Below are positions 3,828 to 37,539 of a stretch of 41,725 bases of DNA, one piece after another. Source of the DNA: a virus (lineage: Duplodnaviria > Caudoviricetes); IMG/VR virus record IMGVR_UViG_3300031965_000069, positions 1-41,725 of that record; one strand, written 5' to 3'. Every line of letters starts with the position of its first letter. Within the stretch, counting starts at the first letter, position 1. Below the pieces are notes generated by a model. The model worked only from the letters and a program-made list of their open reading frames with translations. It had not been told where the DNA came from and did no database searches. Made by a program: the position numbers and the translations under genes.

Positions 3828-4837
3828 GATGCCTTAATTTCTGTAATTGTTATAGAAGAAGCAAGTACCCCGCCATACAACCTTGACCCACCGGAACCGT
3901 TGAATGTAAACGTGCCTGAAGTATCCCCTCCGGCGCGAACCTTAAATGTAGTTTCACTAGTTGTGCCTGCGGTCATAAAATGAGTAAACACAATTGCGTT
4001 TGGTCTAGTACTAGAACCTAACCCATGAGTACCGCAAGCTAAGGCTCCCTCAGTTGAATCCTGAAACAACGCCGCTGTTTTTGAAGCCCCGGAACCGACA
4101 CTGAAGTCATGGTAGACAACAACTTCAATTTTCAACTTGTTGGTCGTACTTTTTGGCGTAATTGCCAAAGTCATATACTCATCACCCTCGTCATTCTGAG
4201 GGATAGAATCATCATCTGGCATAACGGTTGTACCGGTAGCAACTGCGCCATCTTGAGTATTTACAATGTTGACAACTGCACCATCTTCAATTCCGCCAGC
4301 AATCGGTTCTCCACTCGCCGTTTGATACCAAGCACACTTCCAGTTACCTGAACCAAGAGAGACGAAGCAAGCCGTGTCCCCGGCGGCGGTCGTAATATTA
4401 GCCGCTCCCGGAAGGATAAGCGAAGTCCCGTTGTGGGTAAGGGTGAGCGCGTCATCAAACTGCACGATACGCCGAGTACCGGCTTGCACCGTACCGAATC
4501 CTGTAATGGTGGTAGTCCCCGTCACATCCACGTAGTTGCCATCAGCGGCCCCAATGTCAGTGGTAGTAGCAGACGCAATATCCTCTGACTTATTTTCATT
4601 TAAGGCCTCAGAAAGTGTCATTACCCCTGAATGAGTCATCGTGCCCGAATGTGTAATATTCTGCGTGATGGTGGCGAGGTTCAGCTTGGAGTTGGCGATA
4701 GCGGCCCCGGCCTTGATGTTCACATTCTCAATGTTGCCGTTAAACTCATTGGCCAGAGGATTTACTTTGTTGTCTAGATTAGCCGCGTTTACTGTTGCCG
4801 GATCAGAACCGTAATCATCTAGGGTAATCAGTCCGAT
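3824..4837 (-). CDS. tail fibre/tail-associated protein; frame open upstream of the track's GTG (4723) to an ATC at 4837
   Basis: Thr/Gly-rich beta-type domains; AAGGAGG 6 nt before ATC-GGA-CTG; in-frame TAA just upstream. Confidence 0.65.
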   Translation of the reverse strand: MGLITLDDYGSDPATVNAANLDNKVNPLANEFNGNIENVNIKAGAAIANSKLNLATITQNITHSGTMTHSGVMTLSEALNENKSEDIASATTTDIGAADGNYVDVTGTTTITGFGTVQAGTRRIVQFDDALTLTHNGTSLILPGAANITTAAGDTACFVSLGSGNWKCAWYQTASGEPIAGGIEDGAVVNIVNTQDGAVATGTTVMPDDDSIPQNDEGDEYMTLAITPKSTTNKLKIEVVVYHDFSVGSGASKTAALFQDSTEGALACGTHGLGSSTRPNAIVFTHFMTAGTTSETTFKVRAGGDTSGTFTFNGSGGSRLYGGVLASSITITEIKAS

Positions 4838-5331
4838 GACGCACCTCCTTTAAAATTAAGTTTGGCAAACTCACCAAATAATTCAACTGCTCTTTTATCA
4901 TAAGCATTAGCAGCTTCAACTTTAGATAAAAACCTACCAATTCTTGAATTCTTTTTATTTATCTGTATTTGAGCTTGCCATCTTTTACGATCTGGAAGCC
5001 AAGAAACTCCTTTATACCCAGATGTATTATCAGAACGTTTCTTCATGTTAAATTTATTCTGTTGATCTGTACACGGCCTCAAGTTTGAACGTCTATTATC
5101 AAGACCGTTTCCATTTATATGATCTACCTGAAACTTTTTATTTCCAATTAAACCGAGTATAAATCTATGCATCATTATATTAATAATTTTCCCATTTATT
5201 TTCTGACGTCTAACAGCATAGACAAGATTATAAGGACATACTACAACGTGCCATTTCATTTTTGATAAAACTAAATAGTCACAATCATCAACAATTGCTT
5301 CATAACCTTTTGATAATGCAATTGATTTCAT
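4828..5331 (-). mobile_element. free-standing HNH-AP2 homing endonuclease
   Basis: VDHINGNGLDNRRSNLR HNH motif; SGYKGVSW...WQAQI...IGRF...EAANAYD...FGEFAKLNF AP2 domain; AT-rich relative to flanks. Confidence 0.92.
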
Positions 5332-5525: not shown

Positions 5526-7687
5526 GTAACCCTCACAGATCTAGGTTGCGCAAACAAGGTATACTCAACGAATGTCGGGCGTTTATTGTAAATATTATTT
5601 TGAATCTTGACTCTGGCGGTCTTGCCTCTGCCCGCATGCTTGGTTCTAAATGTCAGAATCTTGCGGGAATCCGTGCCTGTAGTAGCTGGGGTGGTGAATG
5701 GCGTGACAAGCGCGCCGGAAAGTGTCCCGGTAGACCCAACACTTACAAACCCTCCACGGTCAACCTCAATCTGAACGGTATAATCGGCATCCGAACCTGT
5801 CTGGCAGACTATCTGAAGGGGGTCAAATATCTTATCGGTAGCACGGTCGCCAAAGTCATGGTCAATACCAATGAGCTTCTGGGTAATGGCGGCCCCATCA
5901 TCATTGCTACCGGAAAGAAGTTTGTAGCAAAGTGAATGTGAGCGTCCGTCTCCACCAACCACGGTCTTGACATTATCCCCGAAGCTGAATGAAGAAAGAC
6001 ATGAGAAATTCCAAGCATCCTTTTTGATAACTGTCCATGCGGAGTTGGGGTCTTGATTTCTCTGGGCGGCCACCGAATCCCATATGAGGAACTGATTCGG
6101 GTTGATATTCGTGCCGGTCGGAACCCCTGCGATATAGAGGCCGTTCTCGAACCATCCGACAGAGTTGGCGATCGCATCCTGATTGATGCTGTCGATGATG
6201 TCCTGTATGGATTCGGAGATCACGCCTACGCGGAGTTTGTCGAAAGTGGTGCGGGATAACAGACGAAACCCGTCAGTACCGAGGAAGATATGGTCGTTGC
6301 CGATGTCTTGTATGGTGCGCCCTGCCGGGCACCCTATGGCAATCGAGAGGGGTTTCACCTCCCAGTCACTCAAGGGGGTTGTGCCATTCATATTCAGCAC
6401 AAAGATGGAGTCATTCTTGTAGATGATAAGCTCGAACTCTTTGAATAGTTTAAGCCAGGTAACCTTGCCACCATCGCCTGAGCGCACACGGAAACGGTTG
6501 GTGGCTCTATCAAAAGTTTGAGCATCCAAAGCATCCGAAAACCACACAATGTCCTGATCGGCAATCGTGAGGGAGCCGGATACAAAGAGTCGGTTGTTGG
6601 TCGCCCACTCTGCGCATGTTCCGCGTGGAACGTCTGTATTCGTGTTACCCTCATCGGTAATCGACTCAGAACTATCCATTGAGTGAACGTTGTCGGTACC
6701 GTTGAAAATGAAGAGCTTGTCCTGGGCCTGCACAAAGTTTGTGGCCTTGTCGGCTGTGAAGCCGGTGTCAATATTCGTCCAACCTTTGAAGTCATCATCA
6801 AGGCGCTGGAGATCAGTATTCTTGATGCGGTAGAGCCGATCTATAGTGGAACCAACCGTGAACCGAGTAATTCCCATAATCTGGTCAAGCTCGATATCGT
6901 CTACAGTAAAATCATCATCGTAAATACGAAGGTCATCAAGTTCACCGTCAAAGGTGCGGGTACCGGCTGAGTTGTTGCCAAGAGTAAGGTCAACTGCCGA
7001 GTCATCATTGATACTGCCAGATCCCGTGGTGTCAGTAGAATACGAAGAAATGGCCCCGTCAATGTAGATGTCAAGTGTGTCATCAGAATTCAAGATCGCA
7101 TCCACCTTGTGCCATTCATCCAAAGTCATGGTGGTTGAAGTTACAACTAGGGCATTGGTGGTGCTGAATCCTACTTCAAAGGTCAGCTTAACTGTGCTTG
7201 AGGACTCACCATTGACAAATACGCGATAGCCGACATCAGACCCGCTCCACTTATCGAATATGCGGCCCTCATCATTCTGGCCGTCGGAATTGACATATAC
7301 CCATGCGGAGAGCCGAAACGGCCCCATGTCGGTTACATCTATGGTGGTGTCGGGTGAAACGGTGATTTCAGATGTGGTGCCGTTGAATGACGCGGCCTTG
7401 CCAAACTTACCATCGACAAAAGTGACCGATGAAGCCGTGCCGTCATTATCACCCTTGTCATCCACTACGGAAGAATCATCGAATGTCCAGCGGGAGATCA
7501 GCGAGTCAGGATTATCCCCGATCCTTGATATCCCCTTCCTCTGCTCGGCCTCTCCGAGATTGGTGATGATTGTATCCTGCACAACAGTCCCATGACCCTG
7601 ACGCGCTATGGTCGGCTCAGACCCGGAATCCTGCCCGTGATTGAATGTCCTGACCCTCTGTGGGATTCGCCTATCTGTCACTCTCAT
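5522..7687 (-). CDS. tail tubular protein B / head-closure (P22 gp10-like) with inserted LamG/concanavalin-A-like domain
   Basis: 721 aa beta-propeller-like (LFIFNG, LIIYK, IGCPAGRTI, HIFLG.DG); LamG motifs WTFDD, GKFGKAASFNG, SAWVY, WHKV, FDGELDDLRIY. Confidence 0.7.
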   Translation of the reverse strand: MRVTDRRIPQRVRTFNHGQDSGSEPTIARQGHGTVVQDTIITNLGEAEQRKGISRIGDNPDSLISRWTFDDSSVVDDKGDNDGTASSVTFVDGKFGKAASFNGTTSEITVSPDTTIDVTDMGPFRLSAWVYVNSDGQNDEGRIFDKWSGSDVGYRVFVNGESSSTVKLTFEVGFSTTNALVVTSTTMTLDEWHKVDAILNSDDTLDIYIDGAISSYSTDTTGSGSINDDSAVDLTLGNNSAGTRTFDGELDDLRIYDDDFTVDDIELDQIMGITRFTVGSTIDRLYRIKNTDLQRLDDDFKGWTNIDTGFTADKATNFVQAQDKLFIFNGTDNVHSMDSSESITDEGNTNTDVPRGTCAEWATNNRLFVSGSLTIADQDIVWFSDALDAQTFDRATNRFRVRSGDGGKVTWLKLFKEFELIIYKNDSIFVLNMNGTTPLSDWEVKPLSIAIGCPAGRTIQDIGNDHIFLGTDGFRLLSRTTFDKLRVGVISESIQDIIDSINQDAIANSVGWFENGLYIAGVPTGTNINPNQFLIWDSVAAQRNQDPNSAWTVIKKDAWNFSCLSSFSFGDNVKTVVGGDGRSHSLCYKLLSGSNDDGAAITQKLIGIDHDFGDRATDKIFDPLQIVCQTGSDADYTVQIEVDRGGFVSVGSTGTLSGALVTPFTTPATTGTDSRKILTFRTKHAGRGKTARVKIQNNIYNKRPTFVEYTLFAQPRSVRVT

Positions 7688-8688
7688 TATGTGAAGAATA
7701 ACCTCCCAGACTCACCAATATCAGATTCGGAGTTAGCCGGTACAAACTGCTTAATCACGTTCCTTCCTTTCCTTGAGTTAAATAGTTCCCTCACGGAATT
7801 GTTGAACTTCTGCTCCTGAAATTGCCATGCTTGCTCCTGACCATCCTCAGCCAGGGCATCAGCCACTATGCCCTCAACAAGTTCATCCGCACACGGAATG
7901 ATGGGCACATCGGCATCATTTTCTAAGGGAAGCCATTTCTTCTTGTACCAAACTTCGGCGGTAAGGGCGGCGGCAGGGGTATTGACAAGCCGTATCCACT
8001 CATAATACGGGGCCTTCTCATTCGGGGCGATCTGAGCCAGAGTGTCTGCGGATGTCTTCTCCCTTAAAGTCACCACCCCGGCAAGCTCAATATCGGTTCC
8101 AGTCAGTGACCCAACACCAATGATGAATTCGGTACCTTCATCGTACGTATTGGAGGAATCCACCGCGGTTGTGCCGTTAAGTGTCAAGGACTCCGATACC
8201 GGAACACCTGATACTTCGCCAGTGATTCTGATGATCTTCGGAGAGTCATCGTCTGTGGATGTAGAGAGAACCTGAACTTTGTCGTCAGTTGATAGGAGAC
8301 TAGATACCGACTTAGAGCCAACTCGAATATATTTCTTTGGCTGTCCTGTCTGCACATTCCCGGCTACTTCCTCGACCGGGGCGGTGAACCTGATATGCGA
8401 TTCGAGTGTATCTTCCGTGATTTCTCTGCCATTGGTTTTGTCCCATATCTTGATGATTTGCTCGAGATCACGCCTTAAGGCATAGTCCCGGGTACTTGCC
8501 GTGACGGACAAGTCATACTCCCTGATTAACTCTACCCACGGGAATGAACGCAGGATGCGGTTGTAGCGGGTTCTGGCCCAGTCTTTTACCTTGGGTAGGA
8601 TGTCATTGGCGTTTGACGTGGAGGTTGAGACATTTTGAACCTGACTCTGCGCCCTCACCTGTATGCGTTTGAAATTATCGTTTATCAA
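7687..8688 (-). CDS. head-tail adaptor / tail tubular protein A-like
   Basis: TTG start with AAGGAG; FPW..L, Y.L..D, G.P..Y and D.P.IP motifs; directly upstream of tubular B. Confidence 0.65.
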   Translation of the reverse strand: MINDNFKRIQVRAQSQVQNVSTSTSNANDILPKVKDWARTRYNRILRSFPWVELIREYDLSVTASTRDYALRRDLEQIIKIWDKTNGREITEDTLESHIRFTAPVEEVAGNVQTGQPKKYIRVGSKSVSSLLSTDDKVQVLSTSTDDDSPKIIRITGEVSGVPVSESLTLNGTTAVDSSNTYDEGTEFIIGVGSLTGTDIELAGVVTLREKTSADTLAQIAPNEKAPYYEWIRLVNTPAAALTAEVWYKKKWLPLENDADVPIIPCADELVEGIVADALAEDGQEQAWQFQEQKFNNSVRELFNSRKGRNVIKQFVPANSESDIGESGRLFFT

Positions 8689-8698
8689 AACTCACTCC

Positions 8699-9160
8699 TT
8701 ATGCGGCCTGACCCACAGTTAGTCCCTCACCTGTCGCCGGAATAACCATGACGTTCCCAAACTGATCTTCCAGAGTCATGGTGATCGTACCTGCTGAACC
8801 AAAGTCAGCGTCACTAGGATTCATCTTTGCGACTCTCCAATGTTGCATGCGGCCTGAGACCGGACACTCGATGTCAAGCTCACCACGGAGTCCGTAGAAG
8901 TCCGAACCCTGACCGGCATCGGTTAAAGTGGCTATGGTGTTGCGCTGACCGCTCGCACTGACTCGCTGGCGGAAGTTGAGGACATAACCGTCAGTAGTGG
9001 TGACTGATTCCCCGGCGGCTACCGTGTAAGAGACATCAGCGGCCCCATCGTCGTTAACTGTGAGTGCGAATGTCTGGGCGTTTGTTACGGTGTGGGGCAC
9101 TCCGAAGGAATCGATATAAATAAATTCGCCGGTATCACACGTGGTTGTAGATGAAGCCAT
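8699..9160 (-). CDS. probable virion protein, Ser/Thr-rich
   Basis: strong AGGAGG RBS; beta-rich composition; position in the structural operon. Confidence 0.5.
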   Translation of the reverse strand: MASSTTTCDTGEFIYIDSFGVPHTVTNAQTFALTVNDDGAADVSYTVAAGESVTTTDGYVLNFRQRVSASGQRNTIATLTDAGQGSDFYGLRGELDIECPVSGRMQHWRVAKMNPSDADFGSAGTITMTLEDQFGNVMVIPATGEGLTVGQAA

Positions 9161-9176: not shown

Positions 9177-9956
9177 TTAATAAAACTTTTTCTGAGCGAT
9201 AAGATGCTGAGCATCCCAACTTGTAAATCTATGTTCAAAATTCTTTCTATGGAGAATAATCTCGAATCCCATTTCTTCGAGTACGGCCTTTAACTTTCGC
9301 CCGCTCCACAGGATGTGGTTGGTTTCGGGATTCCAATGACTAAAATCCCTTGGGCTATTATGATATATAAAGTCCGTGTCAGGAGTTGCTAAGAATAATA
9401 TACCATTCTCAGGCATCAAATTATATGCTTTTTCCAGAGCCATCAGTGGATCGGAGAAGTTCTCTAAAACATTCGACATCCATATCAAATCAAACTTCAG
9501 GTCATCGGGAAACTTGAATGTCTCGTAATCGGCCTTAATGAGGCGAGGGGTTTCCTCGGCCACAGGTGAGTTGTCAATACCGTAGGCCACCCACCCACGC
9601 TTGGCGAACGACATCATGGAATAAGGCGAGGCATACCCCACATCCAGCATCTTGCGGCCATAAGTCATTTCTTCAAGTAAGGGGCCATACACCCTTGAAG
9701 GGTACGCCATCGAATCGGCATACTTCCTCTTGTCCTTAAGCAAGATATCCAGATACTCTTTACCGAACTGCTTACAAACATCCACTGGTATCTTGTTTTG
9801 CCAAACTACCCCACATACACAGTGCCACCAAAGAGAAGTTTGCTTGGTGTCCACATTCTCCATCTTATGAAGCATATAGGTCACGGCCTGACCCCTGCAC
9901 ACCGGACAGATCGGGGTATCAGACTGTGACTGTTTCTCGGCTTCTAGCGTTTTCAT
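9177..9956 (-). CDS. class I SAM-dependent methyltransferase (Methyltransf_23-like) with N-terminal zinc ribbon
   Basis: CPVC...CVCG; MLDVGY; YGIDNS; FDLIWM.NVLEN..DP; G.L.LATP. Confidence 0.8.
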   Translation of the reverse strand: MKTLEAEKQSQSDTPICPVCRGQAVTYMLHKMENVDTKQTSLWWHCVCGVVWQNKIPVDVCKQFGKEYLDILLKDKRKYADSMAYPSRVYGPLLEEMTYGRKMLDVGYASPYSMMSFAKRGWVAYGIDNSPVAEETPRLIKADYETFKFPDDLKFDLIWMSNVLENFSDPLMALEKAYNLMPENGILFLATPDTDFIYHNSPRDFSHWNPETNHILWSGRKLKAVLEEMGFEIILHRKNFEHRFTSWDAQHLIAQKKFY

Positions 9957-10944
9957 AAACCTTCTGTACCTTTTCGAGCACAAGCTCAGGTGATATCCCC
10001 TTCGACATACACCATGCGCCACCGGACTTGGTGTCAACCGGGCATTGGTTCTTGATGTTGTAGATAAGCCGGAAGCACGGGGCGCACTCAGCTAATAACG
10101 AATCAGCTTCCATGCTTAAGTCATTAGTAAAATGTTTGGTGATATTATTCTTGGTGGTGTGACCCAAGAGTCCAATCTTCGGTGTATCGTAACAACCTGA
10201 TGCATGCAGGATTCCGGTATCAGGCGATATCACAAGATCAACAAGACCGGTAAGGGCCATTGAAGTACGGATGCTCACGTCCCCTGATAGGTTCGTCACT
10301 CTCGGATGGTCAAACTCCAAAAGTTTACATTTCAAGTCACCCGTGGTGATAATGTGAATGTCCTTGACTTTGAGCAAATCCCCCATGACCGCTTCCATCC
10401 ACGTATATGCCTTGTGAGTACCGGAACCTGAGTAGCACACCAAGATATTGAAGTGGTTGGGACGTAATAAATGTTTTGAAGCTTCCTCAAGCTCCTTGTC
10501 ATGAAAATAAAGTTCAGGGCGCAAGTCATCCGAGGTTTCCCACGAGAGCCCGGCCCACTTCATCGTATATTCATAATAGTTGAAGTCACACAAGGCGCGT
10601 CTTTCATCCTTTGTATAATTGTATTTAGGTGAGCGAGGATGGACGGCCAAAGCAACTTCAATAGATTCGGAAAAGTTGATTATGCGGTCGGCTTTTATTC
10701 CCTTCGCCTGATTATCCCAGTGTTTCTGGAGGGCCTTCACAGGCACAGAATCCTTCTTGTAGTAAATAAGCTTGTCGATATGAGGGTTATACTTAAATAC
10801 CTCACGGCCTCGATCGCTGGTCTCAAGGAAGATTTGATGACCTTGAGCTTTAAGTTTACGTAGGACTGGAGTGATTATTAAACAATCACTCTAACCGAAC
10901 GCACCAAGCCGTACTATGTAGTACCTAAGCTTGTTTGCGCTCAT
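9919..10944 (-). CDS. glycosyltransferase family 9 (heptosyltransferase-like), interrupted by an in-frame TAG at codon 18 (recoded or pseudogene)
   Basis: GGAGG RBS, ATG 10944: MSANKLRYYIVRLGAFG*SDCLIITPVLRKLK...NPHID; ISPDTGILHAS...TPKIGL; C-terminal CAPC..C..C. Confidence 0.8.
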
Positions 10945-11731
10945 GGGGCATCACCTCCTCTCGGGGCTCTAACCAACTTTGCCCATCTTGCCCACCCATC
11001 TTCCCATTAGGGTCTATCATCACCTCAATCTGCTTGTGGCCCAAACGCTTAAACGCCATGTAGCGTTTATAACCATCTAGTCTCTGGCCATCTGGACCAA
11101 CAAGAATGGGCAGAATCTTCTCGCCCTTCTCGATTAAAGCCATCACTTTCTCAATGCCTTCCTCATGGTCACGAGTAGCATCATCTTTCACCGGATCCAG
11201 ACACATCCCACCGGGCTTGTGGCCAGCGTCATAGGGCTGGACATCATCGATATCAACTGGCATCACTTTGGCCTCTTTGAACGGCCCGTACTTCTTGGCG
11301 AATGGCAAATACTCAGACCTTAACCTCTTGGCCTCAGTAAACGCCCGCTCAAAGTCCTCAAACTCATCCTGAGATAAATGGATGCGCAAATCCCGATAGT
11401 GGACATGGTAGGTATCATCCTTGTTCCACTCGACACTTAAACGATTAGGATAGTAAGCGGAACTATGGCTGAAGCTTTCCTGAAACATCAGTTGCTTCAG
11501 GATATTGGGATCACCCTCTTTAAAGTCAGACTGCTCGATGGTATGCTCGGCGGCCTTGTAGAGGTTGTGCATCCCGGCCATAAACTTGGAGAACTCCTCA
11601 ATACTCATATCGAGTCGCAGATTACGAAAATGAATATGGATATTCTCACACAGGTCTACCCAGAGTCCATTAGGCGTAACGCTTCTCGGCTCCAACACTT
11701 CCTCAGCCAACACCTTCTTAATTGCTCCCAC
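10925..11731 (-). CDS. protein with a duplicated N-terminal His-containing domain and a C-terminal ParB/Srx-like domain
   Basis: two copies of PN.L.V....H.H.R.LR...S..EF..F; PILV..DGQRLDGYKRY.A...LG...IEV. Confidence 0.6.
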   Translation of the reverse strand: MGAIKKVLAEEVLEPRSVTPNGLWVDLCENIHIHFRNLRLDMSIEEFSKFMAGMHNLYKAAEHTIEQSDFKEGDPNILKQLMFQESFSHSSAYYPNRLSVEWNKDDTYHVHYRDLRIHLSQDEFEDFERAFTEAKRLRSEYLPFAKKYGPFKEAKVMPVDIDDVQPYDAGHKPGGMCLDPVKDDATRDHEEGIEKVMALIEKGEKILPILVGPDGQRLDGYKRYMAFKRLGHKQIEVMIDPNGKMGGQDGQSWLEPREEVMPHERKQA

Positions 11732-12365
11732 GTTTCCTCCCTATCATTGTCAGGATGTTCCTGTCGCCGCCGCTTTTTCTTATCTTCGACTCATCATAGT
11801 TGGTCTCAAGCACCTCGTAGGCGTTCATATCGAAGAACGTCTTAAGACTCGCCTCGTTAAAATAATGCACATGCTCATGGGGCCGGTAGTGCCGCCATTG
11901 GCCTAAATCTTTACCCTTAAAATCATCGGTAGATGGAGTTGATACAAAAAGAAATGCAGGATTAAAAATCTGGATAACATTCTGCGGATAATCCAAATGC
12001 TCGATACAGTCCCACATGGTCAAAATATAAGGATTAACTATGTCCTTTTTAGGGAATCCATAGTAAGGGTTAACATCATATCCGTGCCCGATGATCCCAC
12101 CATTAAGAGACTGGTGAAATTCACCCGTAGCGCAACCGTAGTCAAGAAGCGTACCCTTCCTAATATGCCTGTATATCTGGCTGGTTCTTAACTCAAGAAG
12201 TTTTCGGCCAATCTCCGCATCCTTGTACTCAACGTACCTATCTTTATAAAACTCATCATAAATGGAGTTGTCTGCCTTATACTTGGACGATATCAGCCGA
12301 CACTCACATATATACAGGTCGCGATAGAGAGGCCGCTGGTCTCTCGCGCAAGCAACACACTTCAT
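11718..12365 (-). CDS. class I SAM-dependent methyltransferase (Methyltransf_23-like)
   Basis: MKCVAC...CEC zinc ribbon; LLDYGCATG; GYDVNP; TMWDCIEHL..P; STP; EHVHYF. Confidence 0.85.
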   Translation of the reverse strand: MKCVACARDQRPLYRDLYICECRLISSKYKADNSIYDEFYKDRYVEYKDAEIGRKLLELRTSQIYRHIRKGTLLDYGCATGEFHQSLNGGIIGHGYDVNPYYGFPKKDIVNPYILTMWDCIEHLDYPQNVIQIFNPAFLFVSTPSTDDFKGKDLGQWRHYRPHEHVHYFNEASLKTFFDMNAYEVLETNYDESKIRKSGGDRNILTMIGRKRGSN

Positions 12366-13416
12366 ACATCTTCTCCATTTGGTGAAGCACTCGTTCTTTA
12401 TCAAAGAACACGCAGATAGGCAATTTTTTCTCGGTGCCCATCTCCTTGATGGATGAACTCACGTTTCCGTTAAGCTCGACAGTATCGCAGATGTCCATGT
12501 TGTAGATGGCGCGGTGACAGGGTGAACACCACGCCTCCGACTGGATCGAGAAATCATTCTTGTCGTTACCGACAATATTCTTGACGGATGCAGCAGTCAT
12601 AAGCATCATCTTGGGTGTTCCGTAGGTTCCGGCCCCAATGCCGATACCGGTCTCTGGGGTAACCAGCATATCAATGTACTTCGTGGCTAGGAGAGCTTGG
12701 CGGAACGGCCATTTGCCGACCACGTTGATAGCATTTGCCTCCTGCCAGCCATCCTGATATATAGGAATACCCCATGCGTGTTTGGCGTATTCCTCGCCAG
12801 CAGTCACGATGACCACCACATCTGGGTGCCTACGCTGAAATTCATCACACACTTCCTTCGACCACGGATAGATCGCCTTCTGCCACATGGTGCCCGCAAT
12901 CGACCACATAAGGATGCGCTTACCCCTGTCCCATATAGGGGTGAATAGCTCGATCATCCGCTCATGCTCTTTCTTGCGGAAGTAAATTTCCCCAACTCTT
13001 CCATAATATTTGTCTGATAGCCCGGCCCACTTTACAGTCTGGTCATAGAAGCAAATATCCCCAAACTTCTCATTCCTCCACTTCTTCGGCATGAAATACT
13101 TGTGGCTTTTCTCGTCAGAAATAAGCGCGCCTTCCAGTGAGGCGTTCAGATCAATAAACTTGTCGTACTCACGCTTAATCTGAATCTGTTTCTTGTAAGT
13201 CTTAAGATTCGTCTCAGAGTCATTAGAGAGTTCTTTTTTAGTGGGCTCCGCAAACACATGATGCTTAATATAGGGGTTGTAGCTCAGTATCTGCGCCCCC
13301 TTCCAGTTGTACTCGAAAGTAACCTCGTAACCTTCCTCATAAAGAATACGGGGTAGATGAGAAGCATGCACGGTGTCGCCAAAAGCACCTTTACGAACCA
13401 CATATGCACGTTTCAC
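12304..13416 (-). CDS. glycosyltransferase family 9 (heptosyltransferase-like)
   Basis: VVRKGAFGD N-terminus; YNPYI; LVTPETG....A....TP; CSPCH...C...C. Confidence 0.8.
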   Translation of the reverse strand: MKRAYVVRKGAFGDTVHASHLPRILYEEGYEVTFEYNWKGAQILSYNPYIKHHVFAEPTKKELSNDSETNLKTYKKQIQIKREYDKFIDLNASLEGALISDEKSHKYFMPKKWRNEKFGDICFYDQTVKWAGLSDKYYGRVGEIYFRKKEHERMIELFTPIWDRGKRILMWSIAGTMWQKAIYPWSKEVCDEFQRRHPDVVVIVTAGEEYAKHAWGIPIYQDGWQEANAINVVGKWPFRQALLATKYIDMLVTPETGIGIGAGTYGTPKMMLMTAASVKNIVGNDKNDFSIQSEAWCSPCHRAIYNMDICDTVELNGNVSSSIKEMGTEKKLPICVFFDKERVLHQMEKMYEVCCLRERPAASLSRPVYM

Positions 13417-13436
13417 ATCTACCCCGCTTCTACTCT

Positions 13437-13874
13437 TTAGGTGAACCGCTCAACAAACGTCACCTGCGCACCGGCTTGGAAAACACCAGCTGCAAGTCCC
13501 GTTCCCGCCGCGTACTGCACAACGAGGTCATCGCCCTCGTCGAAGTCAGTAGCGGTAAGCGATCCATCTTTAACCGTGTTATTGGCCTGAGTCCCAATGG
13601 ACGCAGAACCAATGGGCGTTACAGCACCCGTACCAGCTACAGACTTGGCGATCTCGATGAAGTTCGAGGCCGCCGCCGCTCCAGTCTGCGTACCACCAAC
13701 CACAAACGACACGTTCCAATCGGTAACCCTCACTGCGTTCATGAAGGTGTACCGCTTGATAACCGTGTCACTCGCGACCACGCTTGTCTGCGTAGACCCC
13801 TTATCGGGTATGGTGATTTGTTGCACCACTCCGTACCGAGGGTCGGAGTAGCTATTCTGTAATGAATTAGCCAT
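13437..13874 (-). CDS. probable capsid decoration / minor head protein
   Basis: immediately downstream of the major capsid gene; strong RBS; Ala/Thr/Gly-rich beta protein. Confidence 0.55.
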   Translation of the reverse strand: MANSLQNSYSDPRYGVVQQITIPDKGSTQTSVVASDTVIKRYTFMNAVRVTDWNVSFVVGGTQTGAAAASNFIEIAKSVAGTGAVTPIGSASIGTQANNTVKDGSLTATDFDEGDDLVVQYAAGTGLAAGVFQAGAQVTFVERFT

Positions 13875-13889: not shown

Positions 13890-14822
13890 TTATACCGAGT
13901 GAGCTGTTCTGATGATTCGGGATTCGCCATCGTCGCCGAAATCCCACACCCTCTGGAAACCCAGAAGGCCATACCACGCGATGCTTTGATCTCTACCGAA
14001 GTCCTTCGGAATATCAATCCGGATTTCTTCAGGGATCGCCACACCTTCGCGCACCGCGTCAGCACCGAAGAAGATCGCTTCTCCATGGAGTGAGTTGGTT
14101 CCGGTTGCGTTGGAGAGGAAGTTGGTTTCCTCCACCACTCTGCACCCGTAATACTGTCCGATCTCCCCACGGAACAAAGGCTCCATCGTTGTATTCTGCG
14201 CCTTTGCTTCGAAGAAGTCATACAGTCCGCGAACCGACTTCGTTGATGCGATACAGACATAATTTTGCCCATCGTACCGGGGAAAATTCCTCGTCTTCAT
14301 CTCATCAACGATATCACGGAAGTTTTTATCCGACATGTCGGCCCCTTGAGCATCGGGGGCACTTGAGGCCGAATTAAACGACGTGGTAGCGGTATTTACG
14401 ATTGAGGCGATGTAGTCCCCGGACTGAAACTGCACTGCCGCGGCAGAGTCCAGAACCTTCGCCATGTCATTACGAAGAACCGTGCGGATTGCCTCCGACA
14501 CGCTCACTTCACTAAGCACACGGGCTTTTAACGTATAAGGTATGGCATTTCCCCATTCCTCCATCGTTAAAGTACCCTGCGTGATCGTGAAGTTATTCCT
14601 CGGCATTGTGTTAGTTTCAACAAGACTTCCACCAGCCACGCTGATGTTACTGATCTTGTCGAAGAATACATTACTGCCCTTGCCGGTTCCGGCGGCGGGT
14701 TCCATATCGGTGAATTGGCGAAAACGCTGTACGGTTTGAGCCGCATGGCGTATTTGACGCGACAGTTCATCGTTATTAAGGAATCCACCAAGGGAATTGA
14801 CAGAGAATAACTGCTGTCCCAT
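13890..14822 (-). CDS. major capsid protein (HK97 fold, N4-gp56-like)
   Basis: 310 aa after the scaffold; FRQF, EWGNAI, LFRGEIGQYYGCRVVEE, DFGR...IAWY motifs. Confidence 0.88.
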   Translation of the reverse strand: MGQQLFSVNSLGGFLNNDELSRQIRHAAQTVQRFRQFTDMEPAAGTGKGSNVFFDKISNISVAGGSLVETNTMPRNNFTITQGTLTMEEWGNAIPYTLKARVLSEVSVSEAIRTVLRNDMAKVLDSAAAVQFQSGDYIASIVNTATTSFNSASSAPDAQGADMSDKNFRDIVDEMKTRNFPRYDGQNYVCIASTKSVRGLYDFFEAKAQNTTMEPLFRGEIGQYYGCRVVEETNFLSNATGTNSLHGEAIFFGADAVREGVAIPEEIRIDIPKDFGRDQSIAWYGLLGFQRVWDFGDDGESRIIRTAHSV

Positions 14823-17181: not shown

Positions 17182-19392
17182 TTACGGTTTGTTACCGTTT
17201 GTGAATGTCTGCAACACCCTCTTGCGTCTCGGATCATCGGTATTGCCGCCCTGCTTCATGCCCTTTTCGGCCTCAAGATGAATATTGATATGTTGCTCGA
17301 TACTCTGGGCAAACTGAGGGTTCGCCTGCATGGCCCCGGCCCCCGCCGGAGAATTCACATACGCCTCAATCACCTGAATATGAACGTTATGATTATCGGT
17401 CGGCTTCACCACGGGGTTGAACCCGGCCTGCATCATTACAATCTCCTGCATCTGGTCTTCGGCTTGGTCAACCTGAATCTCTTGGGGACGCGTGATAAAC
17501 ATGTCGGGGTCAATGACATCGGGGTCTTGCTCCAACCAGTCTCTAAGGGCGAAGTAGAGGTTTTCCTGCGTCATGATGCCGATAGGCAGTGCTAGTTTCG
17601 AGAGTATGTCCATACGCTGAAGTGCCTTGGCCTGTTGAAGCTGATGGTTGGAGGCCTCGACCGACCCATTCCATGACACGTCAACCTGCACCATGAAGTC
17701 ATCGGGCGTGAGTATCGTGCCGCCAATGACTCGCGGCCCCGTAACCGACTGCTTCAGTATCAAATACATTTGCTGGGCCACGTCTGACAGGGATTCCAAA
17801 AACATCATGACTTCGGTGTTTAACTGTTGTTGGTTGGCTCCCTGCACGGCGGCGATCTCAGTGGCTGTCCTCGACCCACCACCCTCCGATATGGCTGACC
17901 GCACGGTGAAGTCAAGTACGGACTGGTATTCCTCAATGTATGCCTTGGCCTGCTGTTCGATGCGCTCAGAAGATATGTCGGTCGTAATGGCCTTATTAAT
18001 CTGCTCGATCTCACCTTGCTCGGCCTCGATCACCTGCCCCGGCTTAAACTGAATCTCTTGCCCAGAAAACCCAAGTTGCCTTGACACCCTAAACATGGGA
18101 TTGTTGTTATACTCATCCCTGATGACCCGCGCGTTAAACATCTTCTCCATAATGTGGTGCATACCCCTGATCTGCTCTGGGATACCTCGCGAGGCATACC
18201 ACCTAGGAGACTTCACCTCGTTATCAAACTTCACATACGTCCACATGCCGTGGTCGTAAGGATGGGGCATTTCCTGCAGAACCTTGATGGATCGTGGGCT
18301 TGAGTTGTCCCCCGAATCCGGCTTGTCGGAGTTCCCAACCTGCTCAATCCAAGTAAACACCCACTTCTCAAGCTCGCCCTTATTCTCATACCAAGTCTGA
18401 CACTCTCTGACGTTGAATAGCTCGGAATTCCCCTTGGCCTCATCCTTGGAGACACCTTCAGCAAGCGACCACGCACTTGAGGTAAGCGAATCATCTTGAG
18501 TGCCCTGATCGGGCTTAAGCGCGTCCACAACTGACTTAGCGTATACCCCGGCATCGGCCTTAGCTCTAAGCTCGGTGTAGGTCATCCACATGTCGTGCGT
18601 CACACGCGGTGTCCGCTGAATATCGGTAGTCCCGGCAGGCACAATAATCCTAAGGCCCCGTTCGGGGATAACCTCTGGCTCAGAGAACACATCCCTCTTG
18701 GTAAACTCGAGAATCTCTTCGCCATCCTTAAACTGACCCACCGCTCTGTCGATCTCAAGCTTATCATCCGCATCATCTAAATCCATACCTTCGCGGTCAG
18801 CTAAAACTTGCGCAAGTTCAGCCTTCGTCATCTCTGACAACCTATCTTTCACCTCATCCGGGAACTCCCTAATATCGAGCTTCCGGTTTATGACCAAACT
18901 CTTAAACTTCTCAATGACCTTCATGACCCCGTGGCCATTCTCAAGGACATAATCAGCCAAAAGTGATATCTTCCTTAGCCACCCAAAGTCTCTTTTCCTC
19001 ACGAGCCCATTTAAGGCCTTCTCAATTTTGTTGGCGCGTTCCCTCGCCCCTTCTGGCTGACGGACTCCGGGTATGAGCCCTACCACAATTTGCTTTTTGG
19101 CAGCTGTCGCCACCGCTACAAGAGACGCCTTCTTCTTCTTGATAATCTTGTCGGTAACCGGTATCGGTACCTCGGCGTACCCCTGATACTGGTTTGGCCG
19201 GGATGACCGCTTCCTCACCCCTAGCCGCATGTTGCTAGCCACAATCTGCTTATTCTTCCAAATCTCCCGCGCGTCATCGTCCCACCTTACCTTCTGGGCA
19301 AGCTCCACGATGAACTGGTGGCGGGGTGATTCTTCCTTCGACAACCTCTCCGTCTTCTCTCTTGGCTCTATAAAATTAGGACTCATGACCAT
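17182..19392 (-). CDS. portal protein (P22-like)
   Basis: 736 aa directly after the large terminase; G.GV.KV, RTATEI and DNH.VHI..H motifs. Confidence 0.85.
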   Translation of the reverse strand: MVMSPNFIEPREKTERLSKEESPRHQFIVELAQKVRWDDDAREIWKNKQIVASNMRLGVRKRSSRPNQYQGYAEVPIPVTDKIIKKKKASLVAVATAAKKQIVVGLIPGVRQPEGARERANKIEKALNGLVRKRDFGWLRKISLLADYVLENGHGVMKVIEKFKSLVINRKLDIREFPDEVKDRLSEMTKAELAQVLADREGMDLDDADDKLEIDRAVGQFKDGEEILEFTKRDVFSEPEVIPERGLRIIVPAGTTDIQRTPRVTHDMWMTYTELRAKADAGVYAKSVVDALKPDQGTQDDSLTSSAWSLAEGVSKDEAKGNSELFNVRECQTWYENKGELEKWVFTWIEQVGNSDKPDSGDNSSPRSIKVLQEMPHPYDHGMWTYVKFDNEVKSPRWYASRGIPEQIRGMHHIMEKMFNARVIRDEYNNNPMFRVSRQLGFSGQEIQFKPGQVIEAEQGEIEQINKAITTDISSERIEQQAKAYIEEYQSVLDFTVRSAISEGGGSRTATEIAAVQGANQQQLNTEVMMFLESLSDVAQQMYLILKQSVTGPRVIGGTILTPDDFMVQVDVSWNGSVEASNHQLQQAKALQRMDILSKLALPIGIMTQENLYFALRDWLEQDPDVIDPDMFITRPQEIQVDQAEDQMQEIVMMQAGFNPVVKPTDNHNVHIQVIEAYVNSPAGAGAMQANPQFAQSIEQHINIHLEAEKGMKQGGNTDDPRRKRVLQTFTNGNKP

Positions 19393-21068
19393 ACTCCATT
19401 CGTATCACCCCAATCTCCGTAACTCGAATATGCAGGTGCTTCCTCGAAACTAAACCGCTTCCTAAACTTCTGATTATACTCAACCTCTCGGCGCGAATGG
19501 GTAAGTTTCATGGCTTGCGGTATCAGCGCCCATGCGTCAGCCCTATCAGGACTCGACCCACACACGGGCTTAATTTCCTCTTTCGGAATGAGGATAATCC
19601 GCCCATTCTTCTTCTTATACTTGGTGGCCGATAACTGCTTCATGAGCACATAATCATCATCTACCTGGAGATTGCCCGACCTCATCTGCTCGGACGCCTC
19701 GACATACGCTTCAGCCCGGCGGTTGAAGAATCTGGACGTATTTTCCGCCTTCTCACTGGACTTGAAAGCCACCACCTTGATACGGCTCGGGTTCAAGCCC
19801 AGCAAGGTATTCACGATCCCCAAAATATCATTCCCAATAGCATCCCCCATGATGACCTGCACCTTGTGCTTGTAGGCAAGTTGCACGATCTCAGCGGCCA
19901 AAGCTGTGGAGTTTGTTTTAGCCAACACCTTTTTCTCAGCTATACACCCGGCGTTCGCCACATAAACCACCGCCTCATCATCGCCTTCGGTTGCCGGGTC
20001 AAACACCAACACCTTACGGTCAAGTGATAGGGGAATATCCAAATTCTTCGCCACTTCCATTTTATCCCACTCAAAAAGAAGCCCTTCCTGCGACCCCTCG
20101 TAGGAGATGTCAAGCTCTTGGGCGATCTCAACCATGTCGTTGTTTCTCCGGGCAATTTCGTTTTCATACCACGGGGATGTAACGTTTTTGGTCTTCCTCC
20201 ACTGTTCGAACGCTTCTTTTGGGCCCAGCGGCATACCTTTATAATTAGCTCCCCTCGCCTTATCTGGGTGAAGCGTCCAGTGAAGGGTCTCGACCTTGAT
20301 CGACCCGGACTTCCTGATCCGCGCGAAGTGGTTACTAAGCCCATATGGAGTCGATACGGCAATCCTACAGTTGGTGGTGTCGGCTGACGACCGCCATGCA
20401 GAATTGTCAACTTCCCAAAAAGCAAACTCATCGAAAAGTATAGCCCTCTGCCGCCCACCTCGTGAAAACTGCGAGTTGGTAGCCTCCCCTGTGATGGACG
20501 ACTTGGTATCGGGATTGATGATCTTCATATAGGAGGTATGCTCATTTTGGTTGAAACCTTTGGGCAACATCCACTTTGGGGTGTTCTTCAGGATGAAGCG
20601 AATCTTCTCCATGAGGGTGGCCATGTCGCCGATTTTGTCCACATACTGCTCCTTTCTCGACCCGCATAGGAAGTCCATACCTTCCCCTTTGAAGAGCCAA
20701 AACCACGTGAATACGGCGAGCATACACCATGACGCGCCCATGTCACGGGACTTCTCAACCAAGATGTCTTCCTGATTTTGGATGGCGTCTTTAACATGCG
20801 TGATGAATTCGTCCTGGAAGCCGTAAGTGATAAAGGGGACTGAGACATTCTCGGCACGGGGGTTATACGTCCACGCGAAGGAGTTGACCCAGAACAAAAT
20901 CTCGTCTTTACAGATCGAATAAACCATACGTTTGACATCATCGGACTGGATACACTTTTGCATAAGTTTCAAGCGGTAATTGGCGTTGGAATCCAGCGTC
21001 TTTGGGTAGACGAGTGGGTTATCTGGTGAAGTGCATATGGGTTTTTCAGCTACGGTGGTCATCTCCAA
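19383..21068 (-). CDS. terL: terminase large subunit
   Basis: Walker A LVEKSRDMGASW, Walker B ILFDEFAF, motif III VSTPYG, nuclease FDPATEGDD and SPDRADA. Confidence 0.93.
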   Translation of the reverse strand: MEMTTVAEKPICTSPDNPLVYPKTLDSNANYRLKLMQKCIQSDDVKRMVYSICKDEILFWVNSFAWTYNPRAENVSVPFITYGFQDEFITHVKDAIQNQEDILVEKSRDMGASWCMLAVFTWFWLFKGEGMDFLCGSRKEQYVDKIGDMATLMEKIRFILKNTPKWMLPKGFNQNEHTSYMKIINPDTKSSITGEATNSQFSRGGRQRAILFDEFAFWEVDNSAWRSSADTTNCRIAVSTPYGLSNHFARIRKSGSIKVETLHWTLHPDKARGANYKGMPLGPKEAFEQWRKTKNVTSPWYENEIARRNNDMVEIAQELDISYEGSQEGLLFEWDKMEVAKNLDIPLSLDRKVLVFDPATEGDDEAVVYVANAGCIAEKKVLAKTNSTALAAEIVQLAYKHKVQVIMGDAIGNDILGIVNTLLGLNPSRIKVVAFKSSEKAENTSRFFNRRAEAYVEASEQMRSGNLQVDDDYVLMKQLSATKYKKKNGRIILIPKEEIKPVCGSSPDRADAWALIPQAMKLTHSRREVEYNQKFRKRFSFEEAPAYSSYGDWGDTNGVWS

Positions 21069-33672: not shown

Positions 33673-35343
33673 ATGAAAAGAATCGACAAATTAACAGAAA
33701 AACAGAAGGCTATGCTACCTGTATGGGCTGATAAGTGGATCAAGATAGGCTTAAAAACGGGTGAGACTGATTGGGCAACATTCGATAAGTATATGCCTAT
33801 TTGTTACCTTAAGGCCGGGATTCAATACCCAAAAAGAGTCATAAGGGTCAAGTCTCCAATGGTCGGAGCGTTTGCCGCAGCTATTGCCGGAGCCATTTTG
33901 AAACAAAAGCGCGGTAATAATGGCGCAGTCCGTGGCGCAGTCAGTGACGCAGTCCGTGGCGCAGTCGGTGGCGCAGTCGGTGGCGCAGTCAGTGGCGCAG
34001 TCAGTGGCGCAGTCGATGGCGCAGTCGGTGGCGCAGTCCGTGGCGCAGTCAGTGACGCAGTCAGTGACGCAGTCCGTGGCGCAGTCAGTGACGCAGTCGG
34101 TGGCGCAGTCTATGACGCAGTCGGTGGCGCAGTCGATGGCGCAGTCGATGACGCAGTCGGTGGCGCAGTCGGTGGCGCAGTCGGTGAAGCAGTCGATGGC
34201 GCAGTCCGTGGCGCAGTCGGTGAAGCAGTCGGTGAAGCAGTCGATGGCGCAGTCGGTGGCGCAGTCGATGGCGCAGTCGATGGCGCAGTCCGTGGCGCAG
34301 TCAGTGACGCAGTCAGTGACGCAGTCTATGGCGCAGTTGATTACGCAGTCCGTGGCGCAGTCGGTGACGCAGTCCGTGGCGCAGTCGATGACGCAGTCAG
34401 TGGCGCAGTCGATGGCGCAGTCGGTGACGCAGTCGATGGCGCAGTCGATGACGCAGTCAGTGACGCAGTCGGTGGCGCAGTCGGTGGCGCAGTTGATTAC
34501 GCAGTCCGTGGCGCAGTCGGTGACGCAGTCCGTGGCGCAGTTGATTACGCAGTTGATTACGCAGTCCGTGGCGCAGTCGATGGCGCAGTCGGTGGCGCAG
34601 TCGATGGCGCAGTCGGTGAAGCAGTCGGTGAAGCAGTCTATGGCGCAGTCGATGAATCCAAAAAAATAATTGCTAAACACAAACTTAAAATTGATTGGCA
34701 TTATTGGCTCGGAGGGCAATTCTGGGTTGGGTATGGTTACGGATGGCGCGGAATAGCGTATTGTGATTTTATGTTTAACGCGTGTGGACTTAAACTATCA
34801 GATGACATTATGGAACGGGCTGAGGCCAATCGCATGGTGGTAGAGTCCGTCAACTACATCTGGCCGAATAGTGATTTTGTTATGGTCTGCGCGAGGCCGA
34901 CAAATATCCACATAAACGACAGAGGACAGCTCCACAACGAGAATGGGCTTGCGATCCGGTATCCGGATGGTTGGGGCATCTACATGATTGATGGGATTAA
35001 CGTCCCCGAACATGTGGTTATGCAACCTGAGACGATTACGATTCAAGAAATTCAGAGTGAGAAAAATCAAGAAAAACAGAGAATCCTAGTCAGGCGGTTC
35101 GGGGTTGATCGGTACTTAGCTCAGATTGGGGCTACGTTAGTGGATGTGGACATGCGTGGTATCGATGGTGGTGGGGCGAGGGCATTGATGCGAGAGCCGA
35201 ATGGGAACTCGTGGCTCGTAGCAACAGATGGGTCGACCGAGCGTGTGTATCATATGGCAGTAGACCCAAAATCAAAGACGTGCCAGGAAGCTCATATGTC
35301 TCTAAGCGGTTTTGATGAGCGCAGAATTCGTTATGAAGGCTGA
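33673..35343 (+). CDS. DUF6745-like protein with a long AVxx tetrapeptide repeat
   Basis: IDKLT..Q......W..KW N-terminus; C.RP..IH....GQLH...G.AIRYPDGWG.Y...G..VP; I..E.N.E..R. Confidence 0.75.
   Translation: MKRIDKLTEKQKAMLPVWADKWIKIGLKTGETDWATFDKYMPICYLKAGIQYPKRVIRVKSPMVGAFAAAIAGAILKQKRGNNGAVRGAVSDAVRGAVGGAVGGAVSGAVSGAVDGAVGGAVRGAVSDAVSDAVRGAVSDAVGGAVYDAVGGAVDGAVDDAVGGAVGGAVGEAVDGAVRGAVGEAVGEAVDGAVGGAVDGAVDGAVRGAVSDAVSDAVYGAVDYAVRGAVGDAVRGAVDDAVSGAVDGAVGDAVDGAVDDAVSDAVGGAVGGAVDYAVRGAVGDAVRGAVDYAVDYAVRGAVDGAVGGAVDGAVGEAVGEAVYGAVDESKKIIAKHKLKIDWHYWLGGQFWVGYGYGWRGIAYCDFMFNACGLKLSDDIMERAEANRMVVESVNYIWPNSDFVMVCARPTNIHINDRGQLHNENGLAIRYPDGWGIYMIDGINVPEHVVMQPETITIQEIQSEKNQEKQRILVRRFGVDRYLAQIGATLVDVDMRGIDGGGARALMREPNGNSWLVATDGSTERVYHMAVDPKSKTCQEAHMSLSGFDERRIRYEG
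33925..34656 (+). repeat. 61 x 12-bp coding tandem repeat GCAGT[C/T]-NNT-NNN (AV[R/S/G/D/Y][G/D/E/Y])
   Basis: 732 bp at an uninterrupted 12-bp period. Confidence 0.93.
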
Positions 35344-36045: not shown

Positions 36046-36153
36046 CCACACCGATGGAATTGCTGAGGGGATTGAGTGTGTGCGGTGCGACATGATGAAG
36101 GTTGAGGACGTTTTTGCCCTCACATATGAACAGATTATGAAGGAGCAGAAGAA

Positions 36154-37434: not shown

Positions 37435-37440
37435 ATATTA

Positions 37441-37511: not shown

Positions 37512-37539
37512 ATAACCAAGGAGCAGAAGGAGTCGCACA

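What the first reader, a model, noticed from the sequence alone, without database searches (positions are those of the whole stretch)
9177..13416. Glycosyltransferase-methyltransferase cassette inside the capsid operon: candidate virion glycosylation system
Seen: five overlapping, co-oriented genes (GT9a, MTase a, ParB/Srx-domain protein, GT9b, MTase b) lie between the capsid/decoration genes and the head-tail adaptor, with only ~20-bp gaps and no obvious promoter or terminator. The GT9+MTase pair occurs twice, and both flanking genes (13437-13874, 8699-9160) encode Ser/Thr-rich probable virion proteins. Known: GT9 includes LPS heptosyltransferases, the related heptosyltransferases Aah/TibC glycosylate proteins, and some actinobacteriophages glycosylate their virions with phage-encoded GTs. 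Inference: this is a late-expressed module that builds a methylated glycan on the particle. Alternatives are host LPS remodelling or DNA modification; the latter is less likely because the cassette is far from the replication genes and the MTases lack obvious DNA-MTase motifs.
Basis: partly seen in the sequence, partly recalled or inferred. Interest (0 to 1): 0.82.

Follow-up and report, generated by a model that had tools for sequence, protein, structure and literature searches.

The report
Two-target phage capsid sugar-coating cassette
An uncultured phage family carries, between its capsid and neck genes, two heptosyltransferase-fold enzymes plus methyltransferases whose inheritance tracks threonines in two different coat proteins, so these viruses likely sugar-coat their own particles; in this genome the second enzyme is interrupted by a stop codon.

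Summary
The five genes are real and the slot is conserved: of 33 related loci spanning cement gene to adaptor, 32 hold two GT9s and all hold methyltransferases. New evidence points to two likely targets. The first transferase (GT9 or a substitute GT4) changes class once on the cement-protein tree but 25 times on the capsid tree, and GT9-linked cement proteins keep Gly-Thr loop sites (median 6 vs 2 without a cassette). GT9b tracks the capsid, and the only 3 of 57 conserved capsid columns lost in cassette-free phages are threonines. Sister cassettes hold sugar O-/C-methyltransferases, aminotransferase, GT2/GT4. No DNA-modification partner genes were found. Best reading: methylated O-glycan on the virion (0.7), untested; linkage can mimic co-inheritance. 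Virion glycosylation is published for mycobacteriophages, and this scan noted similar cassettes on other DNA before; a GT9-based, two-target version was not found in nine literature searches.

The parts
13890..14822 (-). Major capsid protein (N4-gp56-like); Thr70, Thr72, Thr84 (and Ser151) are candidate acceptor sites for GT9b-type enzymes
   Evidence: PHROG 1357 E 8e-15, TIGR04387 E 5e-12 below cut-off; site contrast 76 vs 24 phages
13437..13874 (-). Jelly-roll cement/decoration protein; conserved Thr62, Thr82, Ser90, Thr95, Thr125, each after Gly; candidate acceptor for GT9a
   Evidence: AF2 pLDDT 82; best structural matches are the chains of BPP-1, KHP40, GP4 and Pam1 capsids, Z 8.1-9.0; alignment
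13340..13439 (-). Long mRNA hairpin pairing GT9a's ribosome-binding site and start codon with its own coding sequence
   Evidence: z -6.2; same pairing with different letters in 3 of 5 relatives folded (L015, L203, L134); median z -2.3 over 25 GT9a starts
12304..13416 (-). GT9a, intact GT9-fold glycosyltransferase, 370 aa; Asp14, Thr176-x3-Lys180, four Cys
   Evidence: AF2 pLDDT 93.5; VIA Z 23.5 3TOV, 21.4 WaaF, 19.8 WaaC, 18.7 TibC, next 12.1 among named GTs; keeps 91 of 92 conserved columns
11718..12365 (-). MTase a, class I SAM methyltransferase with N-terminal Cys knuckle, 215 aa
   Evidence: Methyltransf_23 E 8e-12; no amino- or C5-DNA-MTase motif by pattern; alignment
10925..11731 (-). 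Optional accessory protein: two His-x-His repeats (DUF6686-like) plus ParB/Srx-type C-terminus; role unresolved
   Evidence: present in 5 of 24 complete GT9-first slots and 0 of 13 GT4-first slots
9919..10944 (-). GT9b, second GT9, interrupted at codon 18 by TAG (10893-10891) within a 6-nt insertion before the catalytic Asp
   Evidence: Pfam GT9 E 1e-7; keeps 44 of 47 conserved columns, relatives' median 43
10858..10944 (-). Two adjacent mRNA hairpins at the GT9b start; the second holds the TAG at its base
   Evidence: z -4.7 for 100 nt, -3.8 and -4.1 separately; lowest z among 50 intact GT9b relatives -2.4
9177..9956 (-). MTase b, class I SAM methyltransferase with Cys knuckle, 259 aa
   Evidence: Methyltransf_23 E 1e-18; alignment
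8699..9160 (-). Small acidic unknown protein after the cassette in close relatives; not supported as a target
   Evidence: no Pfam hit; Gly-Thr obs/exp 1.33 in 8 homologs; lies upstream of the capsid gene in L016 and L072
7687..8688 (-). Head-tail adaptor, right border of the slot
   Evidence: Pfam SU10_adaptor E 7e-10

Best explanation
This is a conserved late-operon cassette that likely O-glycosylates the phage's own coat: GT9a likely transfers a host-made nucleotide sugar (possibly ADP-heptose) to Gly-Thr loop sites of the cement protein, GT9b-type enzymes likely modify threonines of the major capsid protein, and the methyltransferases likely cap the sugars. Cement gene, first transferase and tailoring genes are swapped as one block between a stable capsid gene and a stable GT9b, which would change the surface glycan without changing the shell. 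A hairpin over GT9a's start likely keeps enzyme levels below coat-protein levels. In this genome GT9b is most likely a recent loss-of-function allele, so only the cement protein would be modified. Shown: gene content, folds, synteny, co-inheritance, site conservation, the stop codon. Inferred: activity, donor, acceptors, purpose.
For: Position: 47 of 50 independent GT9 loci with enough upstream DNA (window included) follow a capsid/cement gene within 1.5 kb; 32 of 33 full slots hold two GT9s, 33 of 33 a methyltransferase. Slot content in relatives: TylF and CmcI sugar O-MTases, NDP-sugar C-MTase, FkbM, DegT aminotransferase, GT2, GT4, cytidylyltransferase-like. MTase-GT9 fusions: 11 of 21 long relatives scanned carry an N-terminal Methyltransf_11 and one a C-terminal Methyltransf_23 domain. 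Co-inheritance: GT9-first vs GT4-first needs 1 change on the cement tree and 25 on the capsid tree (92 rows); distance correlation cement~GT9a 0.67 (partial 0.61), cement~GT9b 0.29 (0.08), capsid~GT9b 0.63 (0.57), n=35; cement~GT4 0.74, n=26. Cement sites: Gly-Thr count median 6 (49 GT9-first), 2 (43 GT4-first), 2 (22 cassette-free); the Thr82 loop is S/T in 96% vs 0%; independent pairs GT9 vs GT4 median p 0.004; four of five sites lie in predicted loops. Capsid sites: of 57 columns conserved in 76 GT9-bearing phages only T70, T72, T84 drop by 0.4 or more in 24 cassette-free phages; T72 70/75 vs 3/24; chance of all three being S/T 0.002. Precedent: the GT9-fold TibC heptosylates proteins using Asp110, Thr226, Lys230 (PMC4358343, passages), matched by motif to Asp14, Thr176, Lys180 of GT9a; mycobacteriophage capsid glycosylation with an O-MTase next to the GTs (PMC11600133, PMC12363180, passages).
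Against: No biochemical or proteomic data. Linkage can mimic co-inheritance: swapping unlike cassettes by homologous recombination needs crossovers in conserved flanks (capsid, GT9b), which would carry the cement gene along, although 23 of 49 GT9-first loci have over 300 nt inserted or fused between cement and GT. The cement tree includes the Gly-Thr columns themselves. Capsid~GT9b correlation may be plain vertical descent; no adaptor or portal control was run. Capsid threonine loss rests on only 5-6 independent pairs and is not significant (T72 median p 0.125). Cassette-free cement proteins are also Thr-rich and 4 of 22 have 4 or more Gly-Thr (6 and 8 in two). GT9a is structurally closer to LPS-type GT9s than to TibC and lacks TibC's N-terminal barrel. 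The window keeps capsid T70/T72/T84 although its GT9b is interrupted. No NDP-sugar synthesis gene was found among 68 ORFs scanned, so the donor is a guess.
Confidence: 0.7

Rival explanations
1. The cassette remodels the host envelope (LPS core or another surface glycan) late in infection, for example to mask the receptor so that progeny are not trapped on cell debris.
For: Closest folds are LPS-type GT9s (3TOV, WaaF, WaaC); GT9b hits heptosyltransferase I/II/III models far below cut-off; tailoring genes resemble O-antigen loci.
Against: Gives no reason for the first transferase to follow the cement protein (1 vs 25 changes) or for threonine sites in two coat proteins to go with the cassette; no flippase, polymerase or membrane GT seen in the slots annotated; identity to LPS GT9s only 12-14%.
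Confidence: 0.12
2. The cassette hypermodifies phage DNA during packaging, guided by the ParB-type protein.
For: Phage GT-B enzymes add mono- and di-heptose to 5hmC, and ParB genes occur beside such pathways (bioRxiv 10.1101/2023.12.21.572611, passages).
Against: Those pathways need 5mYOX/TET or ThyS; none, and no C5-MTase, among 68 ORFs scanned. The ParB-type gene is optional (5 of 24 slots). No T4 BGT among the 50 structural matches listed. MTases lack DNA-MTase motifs.
Confidence: 0.06
3. The enzymes glycosylate virion proteins other than, or in a different division from, the two proposed (for example tail, adaptor or LamG fibre proteins; or GT9b extends the sugar placed by GT9a), and the co-inheritance is linkage.
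For: Mycobacteriophages also modify tail tube proteins; several Thr-rich virion genes lie downstream (S+T 0.19-0.24); linkage caveat above.
Against: Gly-Thr enrichment is specific to the cement protein (obs/exp 2.84 vs 0.9-1.3 for portal, adaptor, capsid); GT9b is kept when the first transferase is replaced by GT4 (11 of 13 slots) and barely tracks GT9a (0.36).
Confidence: 0.12

Closest known systems
Mycobacteriophage virion glycosylation (Che8, Corndog, Myrna; Freeman et al. 2023, not readable here, seen through citing passages in PMC12363180, PMC11600133, PMC12619734)
   Same: Phage-encoded GTs with a neighbouring O-methyltransferase in or near the structural operon, modifying coat proteins (shown there, inferred here).
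   Different: Here the enzymes are GT9-fold; targets appear to be a cement protein and internal capsid threonines rather than capsid and tail-tube C-termini; the phage is podovirus-like, uncultured, host unknown.
BAHT protein O-heptosyltransferases TibC/Aah (PMC4358343)
   Same: GT9 fold (Z 18.7), catalytic Asp position, Thr-x3-Lys donor motif, four C-terminal Cys; protein Ser/Thr acceptor if the model holds.
   Different: 9% identity; no N-terminal beta-barrel; oligomer, iron and donor untested; paired with methyltransferases.
LPS core heptosyltransferases WaaC, WaaF, WaaQ and Veillonella GT9 3TOV
   Same: Best structural matches (Z 19.8-23.5); shared GD, K and D/E-T-G motifs.
   Different: 12-14% identity, scores far below NCBIfam cut-offs (23.5 vs 134.6 bits); no hit in the GTDB scan; sits in a capsid operon.
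Phage DNA hypermodification GT clusters (Pyle et al., bioRxiv 2023.12.21.572611)
   Same: GT-B fold, heptose chemistry, ParB neighbours.
   Different: No 5mYOX/TET, ThyS or C5-MTase found here; T4 BGT not among listed matches.

Membership tests
GT9 glycosyltransferases | GT-B fold closest to WaaC/WaaF/3TOV | tested here: met
   (GT9a); profile of GT9b family hits 3TOV E 5e-7 and WaaF E 2e-5
GT9 glycosyltransferases | Catalytic Asp in the N-terminal GD motif in an open frame | tested here: inconclusive
   Met for GT9a (Asp14); GT9b keeps the Asp codon but behind an in-frame TAG
GT9 glycosyltransferases | Transfers heptose from ADP-heptose | not testable with these tools
   Motif match only; GT9a lacks the His that GT9b keeps after its DTG motif
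LPS core heptosyltransferases (WaaC/WaaF/WaaQ) | NCBIfam equivalog score above cut-off | tested here: not met
   GT9a no hit; GT9b 15-24 bits vs cut-offs 135-467
BAHT (TibC/Aah) | N-terminal beta-barrel substrate domain | tested here: not met
   GT9a model aligns to TibC residues 96-391 only and starts at the catalytic domain
BAHT (TibC/Aah) | Four-Cys iron finger and dodecamer | tested here: inconclusive
   Four Cys invariant in GT9a and 98-100% in GT9b; metal and oligomer untested
Phage virion glycosylation systems (mycobacteriophage type) | GTs plus O-MTase encoded in the structural region | tested here: met
Phage virion glycosylation systems (mycobacteriophage type) | Glycans detected on virion proteins and lost on GT deletion | not testable with these tools
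   No cultured phage carries either GT9
Phage DNA hypermodification clusters | 5mYOX/TET, ThyS or C5-MTase partner | tested here: not met
   none among 68 ORFs scanned with Pfam, 43 of them also with PHROGs
BPP-1/Pam1-type jelly-roll cement proteins | Jelly-roll fold, gene next to the capsid gene | tested here: met
   Z 8.1-9.0 to four phage capsid accessory chains, only modestly above unrelated jelly rolls at 7-8.8; that these chains are cement proteins is partly recalled
ParB/Srx superfamily (middle gene) | ParB_N domain with its Gly-x-x-Arg motif | tested here: inconclusive
   PHROG E 6e-4 to 5e-3, PDB E 0.2-0.8, Atlas 0.90 to a ParB_N cluster; no model made

The most novel reading that the evidence does not exclude
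A very large uncultured phage family builds a two-layer, switchable methyl-heptose coat: a core GT9 glycosylates capsid threonines while an interchangeable cement-protein-plus-transferase block acts like a virion serotype locus; and in this genome the UAG set in a hairpin in GT9b is not a lesion but a recoding switch (a 6-nt ribosomal hop or readthrough) that makes capsid glycosylation partial.
Probability: 0.1. Interest if true: 0.9.

Novelty: new variant of a known kind. Interest (0 to 1): 0.66.

Why it matters
Virion glycosylation is shown for a few mycobacteriophages, where it lowers antibody neutralisation. This family suggests it is common in environmental phages that never meet antibodies (590 GT9b-like clusters at 50% identity with E below 1e-30; about 1,700 IMG/VR stretches with the capsid pattern), so the glycan must serve something else, such as shielding from proteases, decoys, sensing or grazers, or tuning adsorption. 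It names specific enzyme-acceptor pairs and residues, which makes the question testable in E. coli without culturing the phage, and would add small single-domain protein O-glycosyltransferases to GT9.

Tried and rejected
Assembly error for the TAG: rejected. Genome-wide TAG recoding: unlikely, TAG ends 6 of 54 called genes and the two tRNAs are Pro and Ile, not suppressors. Shared stop or insertion in relatives: none in 50 GT9b relatives; one frameshifted GT9 (L029) among 106 pieces. Decay of GT9b or MTase b: not seen. Bulk Ser/Thr richness as evidence: rejected. Cultured carriers: none for GT9a or GT9b in 50,697 phage records; capsid relatives at about 40% (Vibrio phage 219E41.1, Escherichia phage HelliStehle) have no cassette in the slot. 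Host: GTDB scans gave no GT9a locus and two short capsid contigs in unrelated MAGs; no host call made. MTase hypervariability: the only two bubbles in about 21 kb of structural genes lie in the MTases, but listed changes are mostly synonymous (13 of 17 codons) and the early region varies more; not used as evidence. No RNA holder listed. Atlas gave no usable hit for the His-repeat domain. The GT9a-cement complex prediction was never queued because the queue was full; no result. Freeman et al. 2023 and its supplements could not be read and may list GT9-type genes. Literature searches returned no paper describing GT9 genes in phage capsid operons; most subscription papers are not covered.
Full report
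Setting. The window is a 41.7-kb phage contig. On the minus strand run terminase (19383-21068), portal (17182-19392), a scaffold-like gene, major capsid (13890-14822), a 145-aa gene, the five-gene cassette, a 153-aa gene, adaptor (7687-8688) and a LamG-bearing neck protein. Cassette GC (0.45-0.49) is close to its flanks. No integrase, TET/5mYOX, ThyS, C5-MTase or NDP-sugar synthesis gene was found among 68 ORFs scanned.

Observation. GT9a folds as a GT9 (pLDDT 93.5; Z 23.5 to 3TOV, 21.4 WaaF, 19.8 WaaC, 18.7 TibC). GT9b begins at ATG 10944 behind a good ribosome-binding site but reads RLGAFG-stop-S-D: a 6-nt insertion with TAG just before the Asp that matches the catalytic base. A second assembly of a run holding this DNA covers it at depth 62 without differences, none of 50 aligned relatives has the insertion, and the rest of the gene keeps 44 of 47 conserved columns (relatives' median 43). 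The lesion is therefore real and recent, or bypassed.

Conservation. Scans with a GT9a alignment gave 53 viral and 69 metagenome loci, 85 groups at 95% nucleotide identity including the window's own record. Of 50 groups with 1.5 kb upstream, 47 follow the capsid or cement gene; of 33 spanning cement gene to adaptor, 31 have two GT9s, one a second GT9 in two pieces, one a single GT9, and all have a methyltransferase. Starting from the capsid instead showed the same slot with other fillings: GT4, GT2, DegT aminotransferase, NDP-sugar C-methyltransferase, CmcI and TylF O-methyltransferases, FkbM, radical SAM, cytidylyltransferase-like (67 selected ORFs scanned). MTase-GT9 fusions are common (12 of 21 long relatives scanned). 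The slot is a glycan-building locus. The surveys were enriched by query, so class counts are not prevalences.

Target 1, the cement protein. The 145-aa gene folds as a jelly roll whose best matches are accessory chains of BPP-1, KHP40, GP4 and Pam1 capsids (Z 8.1-9.0, modestly above background). At 33% mean identity it keeps Gly-Thr/Ser at 62, 82, 90, 95 and 125 (89-98% S/T in 57 sequences), four of them in predicted loops. A sister cassette has a GT4 first. Of 222 loci with a capsid gene, 152 had a cement gene, a class and a long enough capsid, and 96 remained after dereplication. GT9-first vs GT4-first changes 25 times on the capsid tree and once on the cement tree; L015 and L130 have near-identical capsids and close GT9b but different cement and first GT. 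Cement distances track the first transferase (0.67 and 0.74) more than the capsid they bind (0.39 and 0.48). Gly-Thr counts are median 6 with GT9 first, 2 with GT4 first, 2 in 22 hand-picked cement proteins from 19 of 24 cassette-free loci (five had no such gene picked); the Thr82 loop is absent from the last class. Against: Thr content alone hardly differs (p 0.058), two cassette-free proteins have 6 and 8 Gly-Thr, the tree includes the trait columns, and linkage can produce co-inheritance, though 23 of 49 GT9-first loci have extra DNA between cement and GT.

Target 2, the capsid. GT9b stays when the first transferase is replaced (11 of 13 complete GT4-first slots) and tracks the capsid, not the cement protein (partial 0.57 vs 0.08). 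Following a lead from an earlier scan note (e1-10462113), I compared 76 GT9-bearing with 24 cassette-free capsids: of 57 conserved columns only T70, T72 and T84 fall by 0.4 or more (T72 70/75 vs 3/24), P 0.002 for all three being S/T. GT4-first phages with GT9b keep them (25/25, 25/25, 26/26). That this stretch is the outward E-loop is recalled from the HK97 fold and not tested. Only 5-6 independent pairs exist, so the phylogenetic test is not significant.

Expression. No promoter lies in the cassette by consensus. The most structured of 211 tiles in the structural arm is a hairpin pairing GT9a's ribosome-binding site and start with codons about 17-22; three of five relatives folded show the same pairing with different letters. 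It likely lowers enzyme output from a capsid transcript. The second most structured tile is the GT9b start, with the TAG at the base of a stem; no intact GT9b relative (n=50) is so structured. This could be a recoding signal in the manner of T4 gene 60 or stop hopping (recalled), but the landing codon would mismatch, readthrough would leave two extra residues before the catalytic Asp, and hairpins also promote insertions. I favour a pseudogene.

Mechanism. Likely: late transcription with the coat genes; GT9a adds a host nucleotide sugar to cement Gly-Thr sites, GT9b-type enzymes to capsid threonines, fused or adjacent MTases methylate the sugar, optional genes vary it. TibC shows that this fold can O-heptosylate proteins with Asp110, Thr226 and Lys230 (PMC4358343, passages), matched by motif in both GT9s, so ADP-heptose is the first donor to try; that would imply a Gram-negative host, which is not established. 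The His-repeat/ParB protein is optional and unresolved; a nucleotide-using tailoring enzyme is my guess.

Known and new. Mycobacteriophages glycosylate capsid and tail tube with GTs next to an O-methyltransferase (passages in PMC12363180, PMC11600133, PMC12619734, PMC12582341, PMC10893344; the primary paper was not readable). Heptose on phage DNA is known but needs partners absent here (bioRxiv 2023.12.21.572611, passages). Nine searches found no paper on GT9 genes in capsid operons. This scan has noted capsid-linked GT cassettes on other DNA several times, none matching this sequence. Verdict: new variant of a known kind, interest 0.66; the added value is the two-target model with named residues and the interrupted GT9b.

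Noticed in passing
window 10858-10944 (-): In-frame TAG within a 6-nt insertion at the base of a strong hairpin in GT9b; unique to this genome among 50 relatives; pseudogene or recoding signal.
   Followed up: partly
window 13340-13439 (-); L015:7975-8084, L203:4300-4409, L134:6600-6709: Hairpin burying GT9a's ribosome-binding site and start codon, kept with different sequences in relatives.
   Followed up: partly
window 9576-9720 and 11826-12135: The only two assembly bubbles in about 21 kb of structural genes fall in the two methyltransferases; listed changes mostly synonymous.
   Followed up: partly
L204-L281: A large sister family with a GT4 in the first position of the same slot and its own cement-protein clade with different conserved Ser/Thr columns.
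   Followed up: partly
window 36154-37511 (+): RtcB RNA ligase followed directly by tRNA-Pro(TGG) and tRNA-Ile(TAT); variants in the sample skip this block (35956-38013).
   Followed up: no
window 38007-38804 (+): Weak hit to the CBASS inhibitor Acb3 (E 0.003, below cut-off).
   Followed up: no
window 33673-35343 (+): 556-aa repetitive protein with DUF6745 in a GC-rich stretch; an antisense ORF of 322 aa overlaps it.
   Followed up: no
window 19145-19244, 3945-4044, 13545-13644 (-): Further strongly structured tiles (z -4.6, -4.5, -3.6) in the portal start region, a tail gene and the cement gene.
   Followed up: no
P0068, P0074, P0085: Multi-domain fusions: GT9-like/MTase-like/GT9 (856 aa) and MTase-like/GT9/extra domain/FkbM (1038 aa).
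   Followed up: partly
L048, L091, L098: GT9-MTase pair follows a different small gene (sometimes duplicated) and no capsid of this family was detected upstream: the cassette may have moved to another capsid lineage.
   Followed up: no
L162, L324, L336: Cassette-free relatives with tandem duplicated cement genes.
   Followed up: no
window 4828-5331 (-): HNH-AP2 homing endonuclease inserted among tail genes, AT-rich.
   Followed up: no
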